Position numbers and translations under genes: made by a program. A stretch of 10,290 nt of DNA, taken from assembly GCA_049968235.1 (NCBI GenBank), contig JBMFRC010000039.1, positions 1-10,290 on the forward strand, read 5' to 3'. This document shows positions 1 through 10,290 of this stretch, piece by piece; position 1 is the stretch's first letter, and each line of letters starts with the position of its first letter. Below the pieces are notes generated by a model. It was given only the letters and a program-made list of their open reading frames with translations, was not told the origin of the DNA and made no database searches. This DNA is from Candidatus Hydrogenedens sp. GTDB taxonomy: Bacteria > Hydrogenedentota > Hydrogenedentia > Hydrogenedentales > Hydrogenedentaceae.

Positions 1-110
1 CTTCCACAGAACCTTCACCTTCAACAATACCTTCATGCACGCCTTCCGCAATGCCTTCATGCACGCCTTCCGCAGAACCTTCACCTTCAACAATACCTTC
101 TTGTTCCCCG
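1..110 (-). repeat. In-frame coding tandem repeats in the acidic tail of the GLUG protein. A 24-nt unit (8 aa, EGVHEGI[AV]) is nested in a 66-nt unit; the repeat may extend beyond the window edge.
   Basis: The identical 26-mer 'gaaccttcaccttcaacaataccttc' occurs at 10-35 and 76-101. The identical 20-mer 'cttcatgcacgccttccgca' occurs at 31-50 and 55-74. Both were read directly from the sequence. Confidence 0.7.
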
Positions 111-2308: not shown

Positions 2309-3316
2309 ATGAGTACAATTATTCAAAAACAAAAAAAATTGCTATCCATTAAAAATTTTACTATATGTCTCCATACAAGGCATGGAGATATTTTTCCTGT
2401 GCAGAATATTTCCTGTGGGATTGAAGAATATGAAATAATTGGAATTGTAGGAGAGTCCGGTTCCGGAAAAAGTGTCTTTGCCTTATCGCTTGCTTCCCTA
2501 TTACCTGAAGAGATGGTTCACATTGAAGCAGACGAAATAAAATTTTCCAAATACGATTTGAAAAAACTTTCTAAAAGGGAATGGCAAAAAATTCGGGGAG
2601 CAATGATAAGTTACGTTTTCCAGGATTCTTTGGTTGCACTCAATCCACACCTCACAGTAGGTTATCAGTTAATAGAACCCCTGCAAATCCATTATAACTA
2701 CTCTTCGGAAAAGGCAAAACAAATAGCAATAGAATATCTAAAAGCGGTGCAGATTCCCGACCCTGAATTACAGATAAGACGCTACCCGCATCATCTCTCC
2801 GGGGGAATGCGTCAGCGCATTGCAATAGCCATGGCTCTTATCTCAAAACCTAAACTTCTGATTGCTGATGAACCCACTACCGCTCTGGATGTTACTTTAC
2901 AAGCACAAACATTAAATTTGTTCAAAAAATTACATGAAGAAAAACCGTTTACAATGATAATTATCACTCACGACTTAAGTCTTGTTGCGGGACTTTGCCA
3001 TCGTGTCTGGATTATGTATGCAGGTAAAATTCTGGAAACTGCTCCTGCAGATAAACTCTTCCTGCATCCCCTTCATCCTTATACCCATGCTTTGCTTTCA
3101 TTAAAACGAAACATGGGTTCTCGTAAACGGTTGCAAAGTTTAGTCGGAAAACCACCCGATTTAAAAACTTTAACAACAAGATGTCCCTTTGCGGAGCGTT
3201 GTCCTTATGCTGTTGAAAAATGTTATGTTCAACCTTTTATCAGTACGGAGATGGAACCTCTCCATTCTACATCATGCTGGCGTATCATAAATCACGAAAT
3301 TGAGTTGGAGGTATAA
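2309..3316 (+). CDS. Oligopeptide/dipeptide-type ABC transporter ATP-binding protein (OppD/DppD family) with the Cys-containing oligopeptide-transporter C-terminal domain.
   Basis: 335-aa ORF. Walker A GESGSGKS; Q-loop region YVFQDS; ABC signature LSGGMRQR; Walker B LLIADEPTTALD; H-loop ITHDL. The C-terminal extension ...HPYTHALL...TTRCPFAERCPYAVEKCYVQ...STSCW is typical of the OppD/OppF C-terminal domain. The N-terminus (LLSIKNFTICLHTRHGDIFPVQNISCGIEEYEIIGIVGESGSGKS) fits the family. Confidence 0.88.
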   Translation: MSTIIQKQKKLLSIKNFTICLHTRHGDIFPVQNISCGIEEYEIIGIVGESGSGKSVFALSLASLLPEEMVHIEADEIKFSKYDLKKLSKREWQKIRGAMISYVFQDSLVALNPHLTVGYQLIEPLQIHYNYSSEKAKQIAIEYLKAVQIPDPELQIRRYPHHLSGGMRQRIAIAMALISKPKLLIADEPTTALDVTLQAQTLNLFKKLHEEKPFTMIIITHDLSLVAGLCHRVWIMYAGKILETAPADKLFLHPLHPYTHALLSLKRNMGSRKRLQSLVGKPPDLKTLTTRCPFAERCPYAVEKCYVQPFISTEMEPLHSTSCWRIINHEIELEV

Positions 3317-5515: not shown

Positions 5516-8047
5516 TTAACGATTTGATTCCGCAGATGCGATTTGTGCCATCGTATATGCGAGACGGGAACGACGACGGATAAAGTAAACCGCCAATCCC
5601 ACACAGATTACAATTGCATTCGATAAGGTATAATTCACTGTCCGCCATAGCATTTTTTGACTATCTGTCGGTTTCTCAATAGTGCGGTCAATCGGCTTAC
5701 GACCTCTCACATTCACGAGGTCTTGAGTGAGCGAAACCGCATCAACACAGTTCAGGAACAAATCAAGATTGCCTGCCTGCAAGAAGTTTTTACGAAACAT
5801 TTCAGAACAACCCAACAAAATCATCTTGGCGGGTTTCGGCTCAATATTCCCTGCGGGAGGTTCCGGTTCCGAATCATCAGGTGGTGCAGGTTCACCCGGA
5901 CGCGTTTGTGGTTTAGGCCAGGCAGGTCTTTCTTTTCCTGCAAAGGCGTCCGGGAATTGCCCTTCTAACATTACCATTAAGGGATACTTCTTCCGTGCTG
6001 TTAGAGAGGGAGGTTCAAATGATTTCGCAGATAGTTTCTCATTTCCCGGAACTGTCCACGCTTTTTCACTGGTAAACATTAAAGGTTTATAGGTCAGCCC
6101 CAATTCTTTTAACTTTTGCTCATTTATCTCCAGATGCGTGCCCCATAGGTAAAACACAGCGGAGAGCCGATTGGTTATGGATGTCTCCTGGTCCATAGAT
6201 TCATGGGTTACTAAGATATGCATCGGTAAACGGAAGGGCTGTCCCACCAATTGAGACATCAGGTCTCCTCCCCCCTGAACATTCAGGGTAACGCTATTCT
6301 CATCCATCAGAATATCTTCACTTACTTTTAAGCCATAATTTTCAAGTAATGGATTAATTTCAGGCTTTTCCTCACGCTTGGACACCGTATTCCCACGAGG
6401 AGTTGCTCGATAATCCCATTCATAGGTCTGAACCGCAAGAACTACGGACTTACCGGAACGCAATGCCCGATTTATCTCCCAGCGTTGGCGGTCATTAAAA
6501 CTACGAGGATTTACAACAACTAATGTATCGTATTCCTCCGGTAAGGGACTTTCTTTCGTTAGCTCTACGCGACGAACATCATACTTCTCCTGTCGCAATA
6601 TTTCTTCAAGATATACATACGGGTCTTCACTCTGCGGGATTTGTTGCCCCATCTGCTGTAGCATCTGTCGCATCTGTGGGTCTATATTAATCGCCTCTTT
6701 TGGAGCCACTAATGCCACTATCGGTGCTTTCGTGCGGGTGAGTTTATACACGGTGCTCACTATGCGATATTCCAATTCCTGTATATTTTCCGGAACAATC
6801 TGAGGGATTATCTCTTCAGGTTTATCTTTATACGCTACGCCTATGGCAGAATAAACCAACTTATTCGTTACTTCATCCTGACTGATGGCACGAACATTGA
6901 ACGGCTTTACGCCTTTATCTAAAAGTCGCCGTTCTACGGTCTCTTCTTCCGTTTCATTCTTCTTCTTTTCCTGTGCAAATATCTCATCCTGGTCCGAAAA
7001 TAGATTAGACACATCCAGATAAATCGTTTTATAGTTTAATTTCCCGCCTGCAGAAATTTTTAATTCTTCAAGTTTATCTTTGATATTCTGTTCCATATCT
7101 TTCATTGCAGTGGGCATGCTTTCCTGTGGACTTATATAAACATTTACCTGCACAGGCACCTCTACCTGTCTTAATATCTTTGCAGATGATTCGGAAACCG
7201 TGTAGATTTTATCTTCGGTCAGGTCAAAACGCTTTAAACTTGTTCCTACCATTAAAAAGTTGAACATTAATCCAATAGCCACGCAAACTGCTACCGCTAC
7301 GGTAAACATCATTTTGGCACCAGGACGGTTCCTCTGGTCAATATACATAATATTCAATACAAGAAATAACACCGTCCAGACGAAGAAAAATATCACATCC
7401 GCAAGGTCAATTACCCCTTTGGTAAATGACCCAAAATGCTTAAAAACGCCTAAAAGATTAGAAAATAACGAACCCAGCCCGGGCAGTTTGTCATCAATAT
7501 AGGATGCAATAAAAGAAGTCCCTAATAAGAAAAGAAGCAAACAGGTCAGCAGGGTAATAACAAAGGCTACTATCTGGTCCTTACAAAAACCGGAGAAGAA
7601 AATACCCAGAGCAAGGAAACAACTTGCTAACAGTAATGTTCCAAAATAACCCCCAATAATAGCACCCATATCCGGATTGCCAAGGTTCTTTAACATAATG
7701 GGAACTGTGAAAGTCATCGCCAGTGAAATTGCAAACACTGTTAATGCGGATAAAAATTTTCCCAAAACCAGTTCACTGGCTTTCATGGGAAAAGTTAATA
7801 GCATCTCCCAGGTGTTTTCCTTGCGTTCCTCTGCCCATAAACGCATCGTTATTGCAGGGATAAATACACAAAGGATTAATGGGAGATTTTCAAAATAAGG
7901 ACGCATATCGGCTACCGGGAAACTGAAAAACGAAGTGATATACAGTCCCACACTGATAGTGATAAATACAATGATAAAAATATATCCAATAGGTGAAGTG
8001 AAATAAGAGGCTAAATCTCTACGATATATACATAAAATATTACGCAT
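5516..8047 (-). CDS. Fused ABC-2 family permease (GldF-like, about 6 TM, N-terminal ~260 aa) plus GldG-like ABC auxiliary component ('ABC-type uncharacterized transport system'), with a C-terminal TM anchor.
   Basis: 843-aa ORF. The N-terminus RDLASYFTSPIGYIFIIVF... is followed by multiple hydrophobic helices typical of ABC-2 permeases. Next comes a large, mostly soluble region, and the C-terminal hydrophobic segment WRTVNYTLSNAIVICVGLAVYFIRRR matches GldG topology. SD AAGGAGGG sits 6 nt upstream of the ATG at 8047. The start overlaps the upstream ATPase gene stop by 8 nt (ATGCGTAA), indicating translational coupling. Confidence 0.82.
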   Translation of the reverse strand: MRNILCIYRRDLASYFTSPIGYIFIIVFITISVGLYITSFFSFPVADMRPYFENLPLILCVFIPAITMRLWAEERKENTWEMLLTFPMKASELVLGKFLSALTVFAISLAMTFTVPIMLKNLGNPDMGAIIGGYFGTLLLASCFLALGIFFSGFCKDQIVAFVITLLTCLLLFLLGTSFIASYIDDKLPGLGSLFSNLLGVFKHFGSFTKGVIDLADVIFFFVWTVLFLVLNIMYIDQRNRPGAKMMFTVAVAVCVAIGLMFNFLMVGTSLKRFDLTEDKIYTVSESSAKILRQVEVPVQVNVYISPQESMPTAMKDMEQNIKDKLEELKISAGGKLNYKTIYLDVSNLFSDQDEIFAQEKKKNETEEETVERRLLDKGVKPFNVRAISQDEVTNKLVYSAIGVAYKDKPEEIIPQIVPENIQELEYRIVSTVYKLTRTKAPIVALVAPKEAINIDPQMRQMLQQMGQQIPQSEDPYVYLEEILRQEKYDVRRVELTKESPLPEEYDTLVVVNPRSFNDRQRWEINRALRSGKSVVLAVQTYEWDYRATPRGNTVSKREEKPEINPLLENYGLKVSEDILMDENSVTLNVQGGGDLMSQLVGQPFRLPMHILVTHESMDQETSITNRLSAVFYLWGTHLEINEQKLKELGLTYKPLMFTSEKAWTVPGNEKLSAKSFEPPSLTARKKYPLMVMLEGQFPDAFAGKERPAWPKPQTRPGEPAPPDDSEPEPPAGNIEPKPAKMILLGCSEMFRKNFLQAGNLDLFLNCVDAVSLTQDLVNVRGRKPIDRTIEKPTDSQKMLWRTVNYTLSNAIVICVGLAVYFIRRRSRLAYTMAQIASAESNR

Positions 8048-9017
8048 GGGTCGCCCTCCTTCTTTCTGTAAGTTCCACTTCGGGTTTCTCCTTTTCTGTT
8101 AAGGTAAGGAAGGTTTCTTCCAAACTCAGAGGTTTTTCAGATAATTCTTTAATAGCCCAACGCTGATTCTGAGCTAACTCATTCAATTCACGCCATATCG
8201 ACACACCTAACTTGCTAATAACAATAAATGAGGAAAATCCATCCTGACTATTTATAAACTGGACCCTCTTTACACCACTAATTCCAGAAATATACTTTTG
8301 AACTTCATTCTGCTCACCTGACACTGTAAACAGATACCGTTCCGAATCTTTGGCTCTATTTCGAAGTTCTTCAATAGTGCCATCTCCGACAATTTTACCC
8401 CGATTAATAATCACTATTCGGTCTGCTGTGGCTTCTACCTCCTGCAAAATATGTGTGGAAAGAATAACAGTTTTATCTTTGGCAAGTTCATCAATAAGAT
8501 GCCGTATTTCTAAAATCTGATGGGGGTCCAAACCGGAGGTAGGTTCATCAAGAATAACTACTTCCGGATCATGAATTAATGCCTGAGCCAGAGCAGTTCG
8601 CTGACGATATCCTTTGGATAATTCACGAATTATCTTACGGAACATCGGTTTTAGCCCACAGGTCTCCACAACCAATTCCATACGATGATTCAACCGGGCT
8701 CCACTTAATCCTCTCGCCTGCCCCACAAACTTCAAATAGGAACTAACTTCCATATCCATATAAAGGGGCAACACTTCAGGAAGGTAGCCAATTACCTGCC
8801 GAACCTTCAATGGGTCCTTGGTTACATCATAACCTGCAACAACAGCCTTACCTGCTGTCGGATACAGATATGTAGTTAATATTTTCATTGTGGTTGATTT
8901 ACCTGCACCATTTGGTCCCAGCAGACCCACAACCTCGCCCTTTCGAACCTCAAAGGAAATGCGGTCTAACGCCACGACAGGACCGTAGTGCATTGTTAAG
9001 TCTGTAACTTGTATCAT
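8040..9017 (-). CDS. ABC transporter ATP-binding protein of the ABC-2 (GldA-like) type with a C-terminal accessory domain; first gene of the operon.
   Basis: 325-aa ORF. Walker A GPNGAGKST; Q-loop YLPE; signature LSKGYRQR; Walker B VVILDEPTSGLD; H-loop LSTHIL. A roughly 100-aa C-terminal extension is typical of GldA/CcmA-like ABC-2 ATPases. SD GGGAG sits about 10 nt upstream of the ATG at 9017. Confidence 0.88.
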   Translation of the reverse strand: MIQVTDLTMHYGPVVALDRISFEVRKGEVVGLLGPNGAGKSTTMKILTTYLYPTAGKAVVAGYDVTKDPLKVRQVIGYLPEVLPLYMDMEVSSYLKFVGQARGLSGARLNHRMELVVETCGLKPMFRKIIRELSKGYRQRTALAQALIHDPEVVILDEPTSGLDPHQILEIRHLIDELAKDKTVILSTHILQEVEATADRIVIINRGKIVGDGTIEELRNRAKDSERYLFTVSGEQNEVQKYISGISGVKRVQFINSQDGFSSFIVISKLGVSIWRELNELAQNQRWAIKELSEKPLSLEETFLTLTEKEKPEVELTERRRATHA

Positions 9018-9081
9018 ACCTTGATACTCCCGTCATTTAGGTTTTGGGATGAAAAAAACAAACTATAAAAATTACTAAAAG

Positions 9082-9124
9082 GAACCTGTCCATCAACACT
9101 TGTCCCCGAAATATACAGGTTCCG
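9082..9124. promoter_or_regulatory. Perfect 9-bp inverted repeat (ggaacctgt ... acaggttcc) with a 25-nt spacer in the promoter/5'UTR region of the ABC operon. It is a candidate operator or RNA stem-loop.
   Basis: 'ggaacctgt' at 9082-9090 and 'acaggttcc' at 9116-9124 are exact reverse complements. The element lies 65-107 nt upstream of the GldA-like start codon on the transcribed (minus) side. Confidence 0.35.
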
Positions 9125-9784
9125 TAATAATAACAAAACATTTTTTAGTAGCAGTCTATAATAATTGATGATAAAAAATATCACATTCCTTTTCATCTCT
9201 TCAAACTTCTATTTACCTTAAACCTTAAATATTTACGCAGTTTCCCTGCCCTAAAACACGATTACCTTAAAAAACGATACTCCCTTATTTAATGTTTACA
9301 AGAAAATCATATTTAACGATAAATTGCATTACTCACCTGTAAACTTATTATCATACCACCTGCCAAAAACCTTTCGATTTATCCCCTCTTATTCCGCCAG
9401 ATTATATCTATCAAACCATGACATTCAATTTATACATCTAAATAAGTCATACTTGTTAGGCAACATTAAGAAGGGGGGTGAGAAAAAGAAGAAACGAGAA
9501 GAGAAACTATTGAGAGTTAAATAGCAAAGCAAAGAAAAACAAAAAATGAAAAAAAAGGTCCGCGATGTAAGGTAAAAGAGATAGAGCAAACAAGTTTTAT
9601 AGATTACGAATTGCCCCATCAGAAACCGACCCGTCGTAGTTGTTTTTTAAGACAGATGCAAGAGGTGATACCAGAGAAAGAATTTGAGCAGAGGTGCATA
9701 GAGAAAGGAGTATATAAACTGAACTGGGGAGAGCGGAAACTTCTGTCCTTACTATTTTTTGCATTGTTGAGCAGTGTATGATAA

Positions 9785-9955
9785 TTTCTCTGTGTTCTCT
9801 TTGCAGGTAATTTGAACGGCGGCGGTAGAACGAATTTTTTTCTCCGTGTATATCTGCGTTCTCTGTGTTTGATTATATTTTTTTCACTACAGAGGACACA
9901 GAGAGGCACGGAGATATTTTTTCTTTTCACTACGGAGAACAAGGAGAGGAGTTAA
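9785..9955. repeat. Cluster of direct and nested inverted repeats built on CTCTGTG/CACAGAG and TCTCCGTG/CACGGAGA cores, inside a >1 kb ORF-less region.
   Basis: Direct repeats with about 4 mismatches over 26 nt: 'ttttcactacagaggacacagagagg' (about 9881-9906) and 'ttttcactacggagaacaaggagagg' (about 9924-9949). Nested inverted repeats: tctccgtg (9841-9848) with cacggaga (9907-9914), and ctctgtgt (9861-9868) with acacagag (9896-9903). There is a further ctctgtgttctct at 9788-9800. Confidence 0.5.
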
Positions 9956-10290
9956 TGAGTTCTTATTTTTGTTTTTTAGCATTTTTGGGTAGAGGGAAAG
10001 TAGCAGGAGGGGAACATTTTAGATAAATAGGATGATTTGAATTGAAATTTATTCTGGTGCATTTCCATACATGCGTGGATTGGGTGTGTCGATAAAAACC
10101 GCCCGTCTGGCAGGACTTTCTATCTGTGTTTTTGTAGATATGGATTTTGCAAATGAATGCGAAGGATTTTTTCATCTATCAATTCTTTTTTTCTGTCTCT
10201 CTGGTCCCATAATACGGATACGATAGTTATACACATATTTGCCCCCATGGAGGACAGTATTAATTAAACCTTTGTTTCCTGTTTCCCCCC

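What the first reader, a model, noticed from the sequence alone, without database searches (positions are those of the whole stretch)
9200..10290. More than 1 kb ORF-less region with a purine-rich tract and a repeat cluster: possible ncRNA, regulatory or origin-like element
The coding density elsewhere in the window is high, yet there is no credible ORF from about 9200 to the window end. The ORFs in the track here are low-complexity (K/R/F/L-rich), lack RBSs and overlap one another. The region contains a 100-nt purine-rich (+ strand) tract at 9465-9560 with G6, A7 and A8 runs. It also has a nested pair of 8-bp inverted repeats at 9841-9914 that could fold into a long imperfect hairpin. Two roughly 26-nt direct repeats about 42 nt apart (9881-9906 and 9924-9949) are built on the same CACAGAG/CGGAGA cores, with further ctctgtg copies at 9788 and 10123. 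Taken together, the repeat cluster points to structured RNA, iteron-like protein-binding sites or a decayed element rather than neutral spacer.
Basis: seen in the sequence. Interest (0 to 1): 0.5.

Follow-up and report, generated by a model that had tools for sequence, protein, structure and literature searches.

The report
Decayed IS5 remnant carrying a palindrome
The "empty" kilobase is mostly the wreck of a small, non-autonomous jumping-gene copy (IS5 family) inserted upstream of a transporter operon. It is ordinary genomic debris, except that its hairpin is built from a 21-base word that also occurs in intergenic palindromes of at least 13 bacterial phyla.

Summary
The window is a whole 10,290-nt contig of a Candidatus Hydrogenedens MAG.

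- **9018-~9320:** the conserved upstream region of the ABC-transporter operon, 78-90% identical in relatives.
- **~9327 onward:** strain-specific. Relatives carry the stop codon of a conserved 960-970-aa gene at this point.
- **9437-9954:** a decayed copy of a MITE-like internal-deletion derivative of an IS5-family insertion sequence.
  - The purine-rich tract is the IS 5' leader.
  - 9546-9779 (+) encodes the first ~77 codons of the transposase. BLASTP against a 343-aa DUF772+DDE_Tnp_1 transposase gives E 5e-31. The frame is broken here by an A8 run.
  - The CACAGAG/CACGGAG repeat cluster is a nested palindrome sitting exactly at the deletion junction.
- **Other copies:** two more copies in a sister MAG share this junction, and one of them is complete (688 nt, terminal inverted repeats, TACA duplication).
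- **Assembly breaks:** three sister assemblies all break inside the element.
- **Rejected readings:** no Rfam family matches, DnaA boxes are not enriched, and there is no iteron array.
- **Unexpected result:** It usually forms intergenic palindromes beside unrelated genes. I found no description of this family.

The parts
8040..9017 (-). ABC-transporter ATPase gene, first gene of a GldA/F/G-like ABC operon. It anchors the synteny comparison.
   Evidence: Pfam ABC_tran E 1e-28. Orthologues at 84-100% identity in Candidatus Hydrogenedens contigs.
9018..9320 (-). Conserved upstream region (promoter and leader) of the ABC operon. It includes a conserved hairpin at 9081-9123 followed by a U run on the - strand. 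The 60-codon ORF at 9014-9196 is open in all relatives but does not evolve like coding sequence.
   Evidence: 78-90% nucleotide identity to L002-L008 and L012-L015, ending at window 9301-9326. Alignment. Variable sites by codon position are 23/17/16.
9327..9436 (.). Strain-specific spacer of unknown origin between the conserved region and the IS left end. It contains TACA at 9433-9436, the same tetranucleotide that flanks the complete copies.
   Evidence: No match in any fetched Hydrogenedens locus. A promoter-like site on the - strand (9428->9401, 10 of 12) is a consensus match only.
9437..9545 (+). Left end of the IS derivative. It comprises a degenerate terminal repeat (TCTAAATAAGT, against TGAGAGTTTTGAATAAGT in the complete copy) and the purine-rich 5' leader of the IS.
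   Evidence: nhmmer with the complete copy L153:4783-5478 aligns positions 12-418 to window 9437-9810, E 2e-53. Window 9477-9504 matches L152 67-96, upstream of the transposase ATG of the near-full-length IS. Alignment A2.
9546..9779 (+). 5' fragment (about 77 codons) of an IS5-family transposase gene. It is a pseudogene, frame-shifted in this contig by A8 at 9549-9556 where the sister assembly has A6.
   Evidence: The sister-assembly ORF P0121 against the 343-aa transposase P0123: 64% identity over 77 aa, E 5e-31. P0123 has DUF772 and DDE_Tnp_1. Profile search E 1.6e-27. nhmmer against L152, E 4.5e-24.
9782..9954 (.). Nested palindrome built of CACAGAG/CACGGAG units at the internal-deletion junction of the IS. 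Outer arms are 9782-9803 / 9926-9954 and inner arms 9841-9867 / 9883-9914. Relative to the two other copies, each arm is present twice in the window (about 64 and 43 nt apart).
   Evidence: The same junction and palindrome occur in L016 and L153. Window 9883-9903 is an exact instance of the pan-bacterial word.
9955..10098 (.). Unassigned sequence. The first ~30 nt resemble the start of the transposase 3' fragment that follows the palindrome in L153/L016. The rest has no detectable relative. The IS right end (3' fragment plus terminal repeat) is missing.
   Evidence: nhmmer with the 3' part of L153/L016/L152 finds nothing in 9955-10290. No right-end repeat with up to 3 mismatches. Local alignment is not above shuffles.
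10099..10113 (-). Terminator-like hairpin CTGCCAGACGGGCGG followed by TTTTT on the - strand. The same 14-15-mer recurs upstream of a 9-nt tandem array in relatives L002-L004.
10176..10290 (-). A 38-codon open frame running off the contig end. It may be the divergent 3' end of the conserved 960-970-aa gene that precedes the ABC operon in all relatives. This is unproven.
   Evidence: frame. A sister MAG carries that gene, cut by a contig end 30 codons before the expected stop. The frame ranks first of 27 six-frame pieces against a C-terminus profile, but E = 0.32.

Best explanation
Window ~9437-9954 is a fossil copy of a small non-autonomous transposable element.

**Origin of the element.** It derives from an IS5-family insertion sequence that lost about 720 nt of its transposase gene. 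What remains is the left end, the purine-rich leader, the first ~77 codons, and (in intact copies) the last ~100 nt of the gene plus the right terminal repeat. A palindrome of CACAGAG-type units sits exactly at the deletion junction.

**Mobility (inferred).** Copies of this kind can only move if a full-length IS of the same family supplies transposase in trans.

**State of the window copy.** It can no longer move. Its outer left repeat is degenerate, its coding remnant is frame-shifted, its palindrome has been duplicated into a nested form, and its right end is not detectable.

**Location.** It lies in a strain-variable slot between a conserved 960-970-aa gene and the promoter region of an ABC-transporter operon. 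9018-~9320 is simply that operon's conserved upstream region.

**Why the contigs end here.** Because the element is repeated in the genome, short-read assemblies break inside it. This explains why the contig ends here and why the region looks 'gene-less'.

**What is shown and what is inferred.** Shown: homology to the transposase, the shared junction in three copies, multiple copies in one genome, and absence from the orthologous position in relatives. Inferred: mobilisation in trans, the order of events (deletion versus palindrome acquisition), and any effect on transcription of the neighbouring operon.
For: - **Transposase fragment.** One search found a second ORF copy (P0122, 71% aa identity) in a sister MAG. 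One search, a profile search of 1.84 billion representatives, hit a 343-aa protein over its first 76 residues at E 1.6e-27. One search shows that protein is DUF772 + DDE_Tnp_1 (IS5 family). One search gives BLASTP 64% identity, E 5e-31.
- **Leader.** One search aligns window 9551-9779 to the 5' end of the IS gene and the purine tract to the IS leader.
- **Shared junction.** Searches show that three copies (window, L016, L153) share the junction ...ALLSS / CTCTGTG-loop-CACAGAG. In L016 and L153 this is followed by the last ~100 nt of the transposase gene (E 1e-14 to 3e-16 by blastn).
- **Complete copy.** L153 carries a complete 688-nt copy bounded by TGAGAGTTTTGAATAAG...TTCAGAGGTCTCA with TACA on both sides.
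- **Window copy.**: nhmmer of the complete copy against the window gives E 2e-53 (9437-9810) and 1.4e-6 (9851-9951).
- **Assembly breaks.**: contigs of three sister assemblies end at window 9740, 9903 and 10290, and two further contigs start inside a copy or its palindrome.
- **Synteny.**: homology stops at 9301-9326, where the neighbouring gene ends in L005-L008 and about 20-36 nt past the DUF4276 gene in L002-L004, L012 and L014.
Against: - The right end of the element (3' gene fragment and terminal repeat) cannot be found in the window.
- The left terminal repeat is only a degenerate match, and its exact boundary (9430-9437) is ambiguous.
- About 440 nt (9327-9436 and 9955-10290) remain unassigned, so the region is a mosaic and not one clean insertion.
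- Pfam, NCBIfam and tblastn against plasmids all failed to recognise the 77-aa fragment directly. The assignment rests on one full-length relative plus several short ones.
- A palindrome without the adjacent transposase fragment exists at the start of L154, so the palindrome may be an independent module and not part of the IS.
Confidence: 0.85

Rival explanations
1. The palindrome (9782-9954) is not part of the IS. It is an independent, widely distributed palindromic DNA element, REP- or MITE-like and possibly acting as a transcription stop or insulator. It invaded the IS, or was captured when the IS lost its middle. The IS remnant is then merely its carrier here. This complements the main explanation and does not exclude it.
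For: - The exact word TTCACYACAGAGGACACAGAG (window 9883-9903) occurs in at least 120 stretches of GTDB representative genomes. About 0.5 are expected by chance from 596 Gb (my arithmetic).
- The hits cover Acidobacteriota, Planctomycetota, Bacteroidota, Chloroflexota, Pseudomonadota, Thermodesulfobacteriota, Gemmatimonadota, Verrucomicrobiota, Lentisphaerota, Chlamydiota, Cloacimonadota, Nitrospirota and Clostridia. They include complete genomes of Bacteroides hominis and Limnoglobus roseus and a draft isolate genome of Shewanella metallivivens.
- The word also occurs in 15 IMG/VR contigs of 42-70% GC.
- 85 of the hits have an inverted partner with at most 6 of 21 mismatches within 300 nt, giving elements of 64-276 nt.
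- Many start 2-16 nt after a stop codon.
- Neighbouring genes are unrelated housekeeping genes.
- A palindrome of this type without the IS fragment sits at the start of L154.
- The full-length IS (L152) has no such palindrome.
Against: - In about 216 kb of Hydrogenedens DNA fetched, clustered units of this type occur only in the IS-derivative copies, at the L154 contig start and as a short remnant in L007/L008. In this lineage it is therefore not a high-copy stand-alone repeat.
- In the IS derivative the TTCAC ends face the loop. That arrangement is rare among the pan-bacterial hits: 3 of the 132 genome hits by a strict pattern.
- No target-site duplication or associated enzyme was identified.
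- No run of T follows the window palindrome on either strand, as the sequence shows.
Confidence: 0.35
2. The region encodes a functional structured non-coding RNA: a long hairpin sRNA, or a cis-regulatory leader of the ABC operon extending to about 9950.
For: - The fold is strong and significant (z about -6 on either strand).
- The conserved part of the upstream region (9018-9320) has a conserved hairpin with one compensatory pair.
Against: - No Rfam family reaches threshold. The only hits are generic hairpin matches to eukaryotic miRNA precursor models below their cut-offs.
- The palindrome region is absent from the orthologous position in all relatives.
- It folds equally well on both strands.
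- Across the wider family, G-T and A-C mismatches are balanced (51 against 56). That is what a DNA palindrome gives, not a strand-specific RNA.
- The sequence is part of a repeated mobile-element derivative.
Confidence: 0.06
3. The region is a replication origin or a plasmid-type iteron array.
For: - The GC skew changes sign near 9400.
- The sequence is AT-rich with repeated motifs.
Against: - DnaA-box matches are not enriched: 6 against 3.7 +/- 1.9, with only two one-mismatch sites in the region.
- No dnaA, dnaN or rep gene is nearby.
- Only two direct copies exist, and they are palindrome arms.
- The skew change coincides with the change from - strand genes to the purine-rich + strand IS.
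- The segment is missing at this position in relatives with the same flanking genes.
Confidence: 0.01

Closest known systems
IS5-family insertion sequences (IS5 group; transposase with DUF772 N-terminal domain and DDE_Tnp_1 catalytic domain)
   Same: - The N-terminal 77 residues align to an IS5-family transposase.
- The leader upstream of the ATG is homologous.
- The terminal repeats contain GAATAAG, as I recall for the E. coli IS5 inverted repeat (recalled from memory, not tested).
- The complete copies carry a 4-bp flanking duplication.
   Different: - No catalytic domain is present.
- The reading frame is broken.
- The right end is missing in the window.
- A palindrome replaces the middle of the element.
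MITEs, i.e. non-autonomous internal-deletion derivatives of insertion sequences (reviewed in PMC3184786, which I saw only in a search listing and did not read in depth)
   Same: - Small size (688 nt in the complete copy).
- No transposase.
- Terminal inverted repeats and a target duplication in L153.
- Several copies in one genome, all sharing one deletion junction.
- A ~300-nt relative with the same ends and TACA flanks in L002-L004.
   Different: - The window copy lacks one end, so it is a fossil and not a mobilisable MITE.
- Copy number in a complete genome is unknown.
- Mobilisation was not shown.
REP/BIME-type extragenic palindromes
   Same: The palindrome's wider family consists of short intergenic imperfect palindromes. 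They often sit just after stop codons, next to unrelated genes, with several per 8 kb in Bacteroides.
   Different: - To my knowledge REP families are lineage-specific and tied to a RAYT transposase. Here the same 21-mer is shared across at least 13 phyla and viral contigs, and no associated enzyme was found.
- The arms are tandem arrays of 9-10-nt units whose number varies between copies.

Membership tests
IS5-family insertion sequence (autonomous) | Intact DDE transposase (DUF772 + DDE_Tnp_1, about 320-350 aa) | tested here: not met
   Only codons 1-77 are present at 9546-9779, frame-shifted by A8. Pfam finds no domain in any ORF of the region.
IS5-family insertion sequence (derived from) | Sequence homology of the remnant to an IS5-family transposase gene and its leader | tested here: met
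   BLASTP E 5e-31. Profile search E 1.6e-27. Pfam domains of the full-length relative. nhmmer E 4.5e-24.
IS5-family insertion sequence / MITE | Terminal inverted repeats at both ends | tested here: not met
   In the window the left repeat is degenerate (9437-9446) and the right repeat was not found with up to 3 mismatches. The feature is met in the complete copy L153 4787-5474.
IS5-family insertion sequence / MITE | Short target-site duplication flanking the element | tested here: inconclusive
   TACA precedes the left end in the window (9433-9436), but the right end is missing. TACA/TACA flanks L153 and the 300-nt element in L002.
MITE (non-autonomous derivative) | Several copies in one genome sharing the same internal structure | tested here: met
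   Sister MAG GCA_049969095.1 carries the window locus (L011), L016 and L153. Contig L154 also starts in the palindrome.
Known structured RNA families (Rfam 15) | Covariance-model match at or above the gathering score | tested here: not met
   There are 0 hits in the window. Only sub-threshold miRNA-precursor hairpin matches appear. No family overlaps the palindromes in 20 other loci.
Chromosomal replication origin | Cluster of DnaA boxes, conserved position next to replication genes, skew switch | tested here: not met
   DnaA boxes 6 against 3.7 +/- 1.9 expected. Flanking genes are transporter genes. The segment is absent in relatives.
Iteron array | Three or more regularly spaced direct repeats of about 17-22 bp next to a rep gene | tested here: not met
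   Two copies only, 83% alike, and each is the arm of a palindrome. No rep gene is present.
REP/BIME elements | High-copy lineage-specific extragenic palindromes with a cognate RAYT transposase | not testable with these tools
   No complete genome of this organism was available. No RAYT gene was seen in the loci fetched.
CACAGAG-unit palindromes (family delimited here, no published name found) | Arm beginning TTCACYACAGAGGACACAGAG followed by further CAC(A/G)GAG units, with an inverted partner nearby | tested here: met
   Exact word at 9883-9903, with an inverted partner at 9841-9867. The difference is that the TTCAC ends face the loop.

The most novel reading that the evidence does not exclude
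The repeat cluster is one instance of an undescribed, sequence-conserved family of intergenic DNA palindromes built from 9-10-nt CAC(A/G)GAGG units and ending in TTCACC...GGTGAA. The family is present in at least 13 bacterial phyla and in viral contigs.

Sharing an identical 21-mer across such distances would imply one of two things. Either a very promiscuous mobile palindrome exists, or a universal host factor selects this sequence.

The Hydrogenedens IS5 derivative would have captured one such module, which now travels with it.
Probability: 0.3. Interest if true: 0.65.

Novelty: new member of a known kind. Interest (0 to 1): 0.3.

Why it matters
For this window, the result removes a false lead. 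The gene-less kilobase is a promoter region plus transposon debris in a strain-variable slot, not a new RNA or an origin. The finding also explains why assemblies of this organism fragment here.

The palindrome is the one point of wider interest. Its exact 21-base arm recurs in intergenic palindromes from Bacteroides to Planctomycetota, Acidobacteriota, Shewanella and viruses. It has no Rfam family, and I could find no paper on it.

If that family is truly uncharacterised, it would be a rare case of a short non-coding DNA element conserved in sequence across bacterial phyla. It is testable with existing Bacteroides transcriptome and Term-seq data.

Tried and rejected
- **Known RNAs.** Rfam at gathering and E-value thresholds and tRNA/tmRNA search found nothing real.
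- **Phage and plasmid collections.** blastn of 9320-10290 found nothing in phages. In plasmids it found only two 50-nt Bacteroides hits, which led to the palindrome family.
- **Exact 22-mer from 9607-9628.** Absent from JGI metagenome contigs and from GTDB representative genomes, so the contig could not be extended.
- **Direct recognition of the ORFs.** Pfam and NCBIfam on all ORFs of the region, and tblastn of the 77-aa ORF against plasmids, gave no hit. The IS5 link came only from the exhaustive HMMER search.
- **IS right end in the window.** Not found.
- **The - strand frame at the contig end as the C-terminus of the neighbouring 960-970-aa gene.** It ranks first but is not significant.
- **The 60-codon ORF at 9014-9196.** It is open in all relatives but has no third-position excess, so it was rejected as a gene.
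- **The palindromes as ends of GxxExxY or four-helix-bundle gene cassettes.** Only 2 of 94 neighbouring ORFs are GxxExxY, so this was rejected as a general rule.
- **Strand-specific RNA function of the palindrome family.** Wobble mismatches are balanced between strands.
- **Literature searches.** Searches by sequence string and by keywords found no description. The triplex/BoxC repeats of PMC4666352 are a different motif.
- **Origin reading.** DnaA boxes are not enriched.

Full report
**Context.** The window is an entire 10,290-nt contig of a Candidatus Hydrogenedens MAG. The ATPase encoded at 8040-9017 (-) is 100% identical to an NCBI protein whose longest contig is 10,290 nt. The genes are:
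- a large Glug-repeat protein running off the left end
- an oligopeptide-type ABC ATPase (2309-3316, +)
- on the - strand, an operon of ABC ATPase, a fused ABC-2 permease/ABC_transp_aux protein and a DUF4340 protein

No long ORF follows from 9018 to the end.

**The observation.**
- The purine tract is real: 82% purine over 96 nt, the most extreme stretch of the contig.
- The inverted repeat is larger than reported, with 26-nt arms at 9841-9866 / 9889-9914.
- An outer pair at 9782-9803 / 9933-9954 encloses it. The 181-nt segment folds with z about -6 on either strand.
- The two direct repeats (29 nt, 83%) are the right-hand arms of the inner and outer palindromes. Their left-hand partners are the repeat pair 9789-9803 / 9853-9867.
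- CACAGAG/CTCTGTG occurs three times, all here. The copy claimed at 10123 is not exact.

**Synteny.**
- I fetched the ATPase locus from relatives at 84-97% protein identity.
- In every one, the roughly 300 nt upstream of the ATPase are conserved with window 9018-~9320 (78-90% identity). Homology then stops at window 9301-9326.
- At that point relatives have the stop codon of a conserved 957-968-aa gene without Pfam domains. In several of them an AAA_15/AAA_21 ATPase plus DUF4276 gene pair lies in between.
- Window 9327-10290 has no counterpart there. The slot is therefore strain-variable, and 9200-~9320 of the finding is just the operon's conserved upstream region.
- That region contains a conserved hairpin followed by a U run (9081-9123, - strand).
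- It also contains a 60-codon frame that stays open in all relatives. Its variable sites are spread 23/17/16 over the codon positions, so it is not evolving as a gene.

**Identity of the strain-specific part.**
- A sister assembly that is 99.9% identical (L001) calls a 77-aa gene at window 9546-9779 (+). In the window an A8 run (A6 in L001) breaks the frame.
- Pfam, NCBIfam and tblastn against plasmids did not recognise it.
- A word-indexed search of 5.8 billion proteins found only one relative, P0122 (71% identity). It lies at the end of another contig of a sister MAG.
- An exhaustive HMMER search with the two-sequence profile then hit the first 76 residues of a 343-aa protein at E 1.6e-27, plus shorter fragments.
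- That protein has DUF772 and DDE_Tnp_1, the IS5-family architecture. BLASTP gives 64% identity over all 77 residues, E 5e-31.
- Its 1,209-nt contig (L152) aligns with window 9551-9779. Upstream of the ATG it also aligns with the core of the purine tract. The purine-rich tract is therefore the leader of the IS.

**A family of deletion derivatives.**
- Two further copies come from sister MAG GCA_049969095.1: L016, at a contig start, and L153, inside a 21-kb contig between queC and a chorismate mutase/prephenate dehydratase gene.
- They align with the window at 82-84% identity over 9505-9803 (L153) and 9567-9803 (L016), and again over the palindrome.
- All three leave the transposase gene at the same codon (...ALLSS) and continue with CTCTGTG-units, a loop and CACAGAG-units.
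- In L016 and L153 the last ~100 nt of the transposase gene follow, and then a right terminal repeat.
- The L153 copy is complete: 688 nt, with ends TGAGAGTTTTGAATAAG ... TTCAGAGGTCTCA and TACA on both sides.
- A ~300-nt element with the same ends and TACA flanks lies upstream of the 968-aa gene in L002-L004.
- nhmmer with the complete copy matches window 9437-9810 (E 2e-53) and 9851-9951 (E 1.4e-6).
- The number of units in the arms differs between copies. The window has each arm twice, which produces the nested palindrome.
- The window copy lacks a recognisable 3' gene fragment and right end. Its outer left repeat is degenerate.
- Contigs of the three sister assemblies end at window 9740, 9903 and 10290. 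Two other contigs start inside a copy or its palindrome. This is the expected behaviour of a dispersed repeat in short-read assemblies.

**The right-hand 340 nt.**
- 9955-10290 could not be assigned.
- On the - strand there is a terminator-like hairpin with a T run at 10113-10099.
- A 38-codon frame runs off the contig end with its stop at 10176.
- The sister MAG has the conserved 960-970-aa gene in the usual upstream synteny, cut by a contig end 30 codons before its expected stop.
- The window frame would fit as the divergent C-terminus of that gene, followed by its terminator. The similarity is not significant, however. I leave this open.

**Rejected readings.**
- No Rfam family matches.
- No tRNA is present.
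- DnaA boxes are not enriched.
- The GC-skew change near 9400 coincides with the switch from - strand genes to the purine-rich sense strand of the IS.
- Two repeat copies that are palindrome arms do not make an iteron array.

**The palindrome beyond this genome.**
- The only plasmid-database hits were two Bacteroides finegoldii records. There TTCACCACAGAGGACACAGAGG...CCTCTGTGTCCTCTGTGGTGAA hairpins follow gene ends.
- The word TTCACYACAGAGGACACAGAG (window 9883-9903) occurs in 15 IMG/VR contigs of 42-70% GC.
By my arithmetic about 0.5 would be expected by chance in 596 Gb.
- The hosts span at least 13 phyla. They include complete genomes of Bacteroides hominis and Limnoglobus roseus and a draft isolate genome of Shewanella metallivivens.
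- 85 hits have an inverted partner with at most 6 of 21 mismatches within 300 nt, giving elements of 64-276 nt.
- Many start 2-16 nt after a stop codon.
- Neighbouring genes are unrelated housekeeping genes. Only 2 of 94 are GxxExxY proteins.
- Wobble-type mismatches are balanced between strands, 51 against 56. This fits a DNA palindrome better than a strand-specific RNA.
- No Rfam family covers them, and text searches found no description.
- In the IS derivative the TTCAC ends face the loop, a minority arrangement.
- In about 216 kb of Hydrogenedens DNA, such clusters occur only in the IS derivatives, at the start of L154 (there without the transposase fragment) and as a remnant in L007/L008.
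- The palindrome is therefore probably an independent module that this IS derivative acquired. What it does, and how it spreads, I could not establish.

**Verdict.** The finding is real as a set of sequence features, but its main explanation is ordinary. It is a conserved promoter region followed by a decayed, non-autonomous IS5-family copy in a variable intergenic slot. It rates low-to-moderate interest, kept above the floor only by the unexplained pan-bacterial distribution of the palindrome's arm.

Noticed in passing
L032-L151 (genome-contig hits), L017-L031 (viral contigs), L009/L010 (Bacteroides finegoldii): The exact 21-mer TTCACYACAGAGGACACAGAG occurs in intergenic palindromes of at least 13 bacterial phyla and in viral contigs of 42-70% GC. 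The arms are tandem 9-10-nt CAC(A/G)GAGG units and the outer ends read TTCACC...GGTGAA. Nested copies occur (for example L124). There is no Rfam family and I found no paper.
   Followed up: partly
L002 669-979, L003, L004 ~230-400: A tandem array of about 35 copies of a 9-nt unit (ATGGGACAA/ATGGGACGC) lies upstream of the 968-aa gene in 97%-relatives. It is preceded by one or two copies of TCTTGCCAGACGGGCGG, the same word as the terminator-like hairpin at window 10099-10113. A gene caller turned the array into a 101-aa ORF.
   Followed up: partly
L002 ~995-1293 (also L003, L004): A ~300-nt MITE-like element has the same terminal repeats as the IS5 derivative (TGAGACCTATGAAC ... TTCAGAGTCTCA) and TACA on both sides. 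It carries a pyrimidine-rich tract but no palindrome.
   Followed up: partly
L004 3767-5664; also L002, L003, L012, L014: An AAA_15/AAA_21 ATPase plus DUF4276 gene pair is inserted between the 968-aa gene and the ABC operon in some strains only. PADLOC matches HEC-01A/mad3 (E 4e-46) and, weakly, mad4 (E 1e-8). This is a candidate defence pair occupying the same variable slot as the IS remnant.
   Followed up: partly
window 9018-9320 (- strand), hairpin 9081-9123: The ~300-nt region upstream of the ABC ATPase is as conserved as coding sequence across Hydrogenedens relatives. It contains a hairpin GGAACCUGU...ACAGGUUCC followed by UUUU, with one compensatory pair among 6 sequences. It may be an attenuator or leader. 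The 60-codon ORF at 9014-9196 overlaps the ATPase start (ATGA) but shows no coding-type substitution pattern.
   Followed up: partly
window 9549-9556: A homopolymer length difference (A8 here, A6 in the 99.9%-identical sister assembly L001) decides whether a 77-aa ORF is called. It is either a real polymorphism or a sequencing or assembly error.
   Followed up: no
L002 1338-4244 and orthologues; L154 2989-5803: The 957-968-aa protein next to the ABC operon has no Pfam domain. It has more than 1,000 relatives at E <= 1e-100 in Hydrogenedentota, Armatimonadota, Acidobacteriota, Lentisphaerota and Planctomycetota, and a few relatives carry PF03425. It is a large uncharacterised family. Its C-terminal ~30 residues vary strongly between close strains.
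   Followed up: no
window 18-83: A 24-nt tandem repeat (2.8 copies, 85% matches) lies inside the C-terminal part of the Glug-repeat gene on the - strand. It encodes EG(I/V)xEG-type repeats.
   Followed up: no
L004 150-185: The short palindrome GGTAGGGGCAATTGACCAATCGCCC lies next to the 9-nt array. It resembles palindromes I recall from other environmental genomes (from memory, not tested).
   Followed up: no
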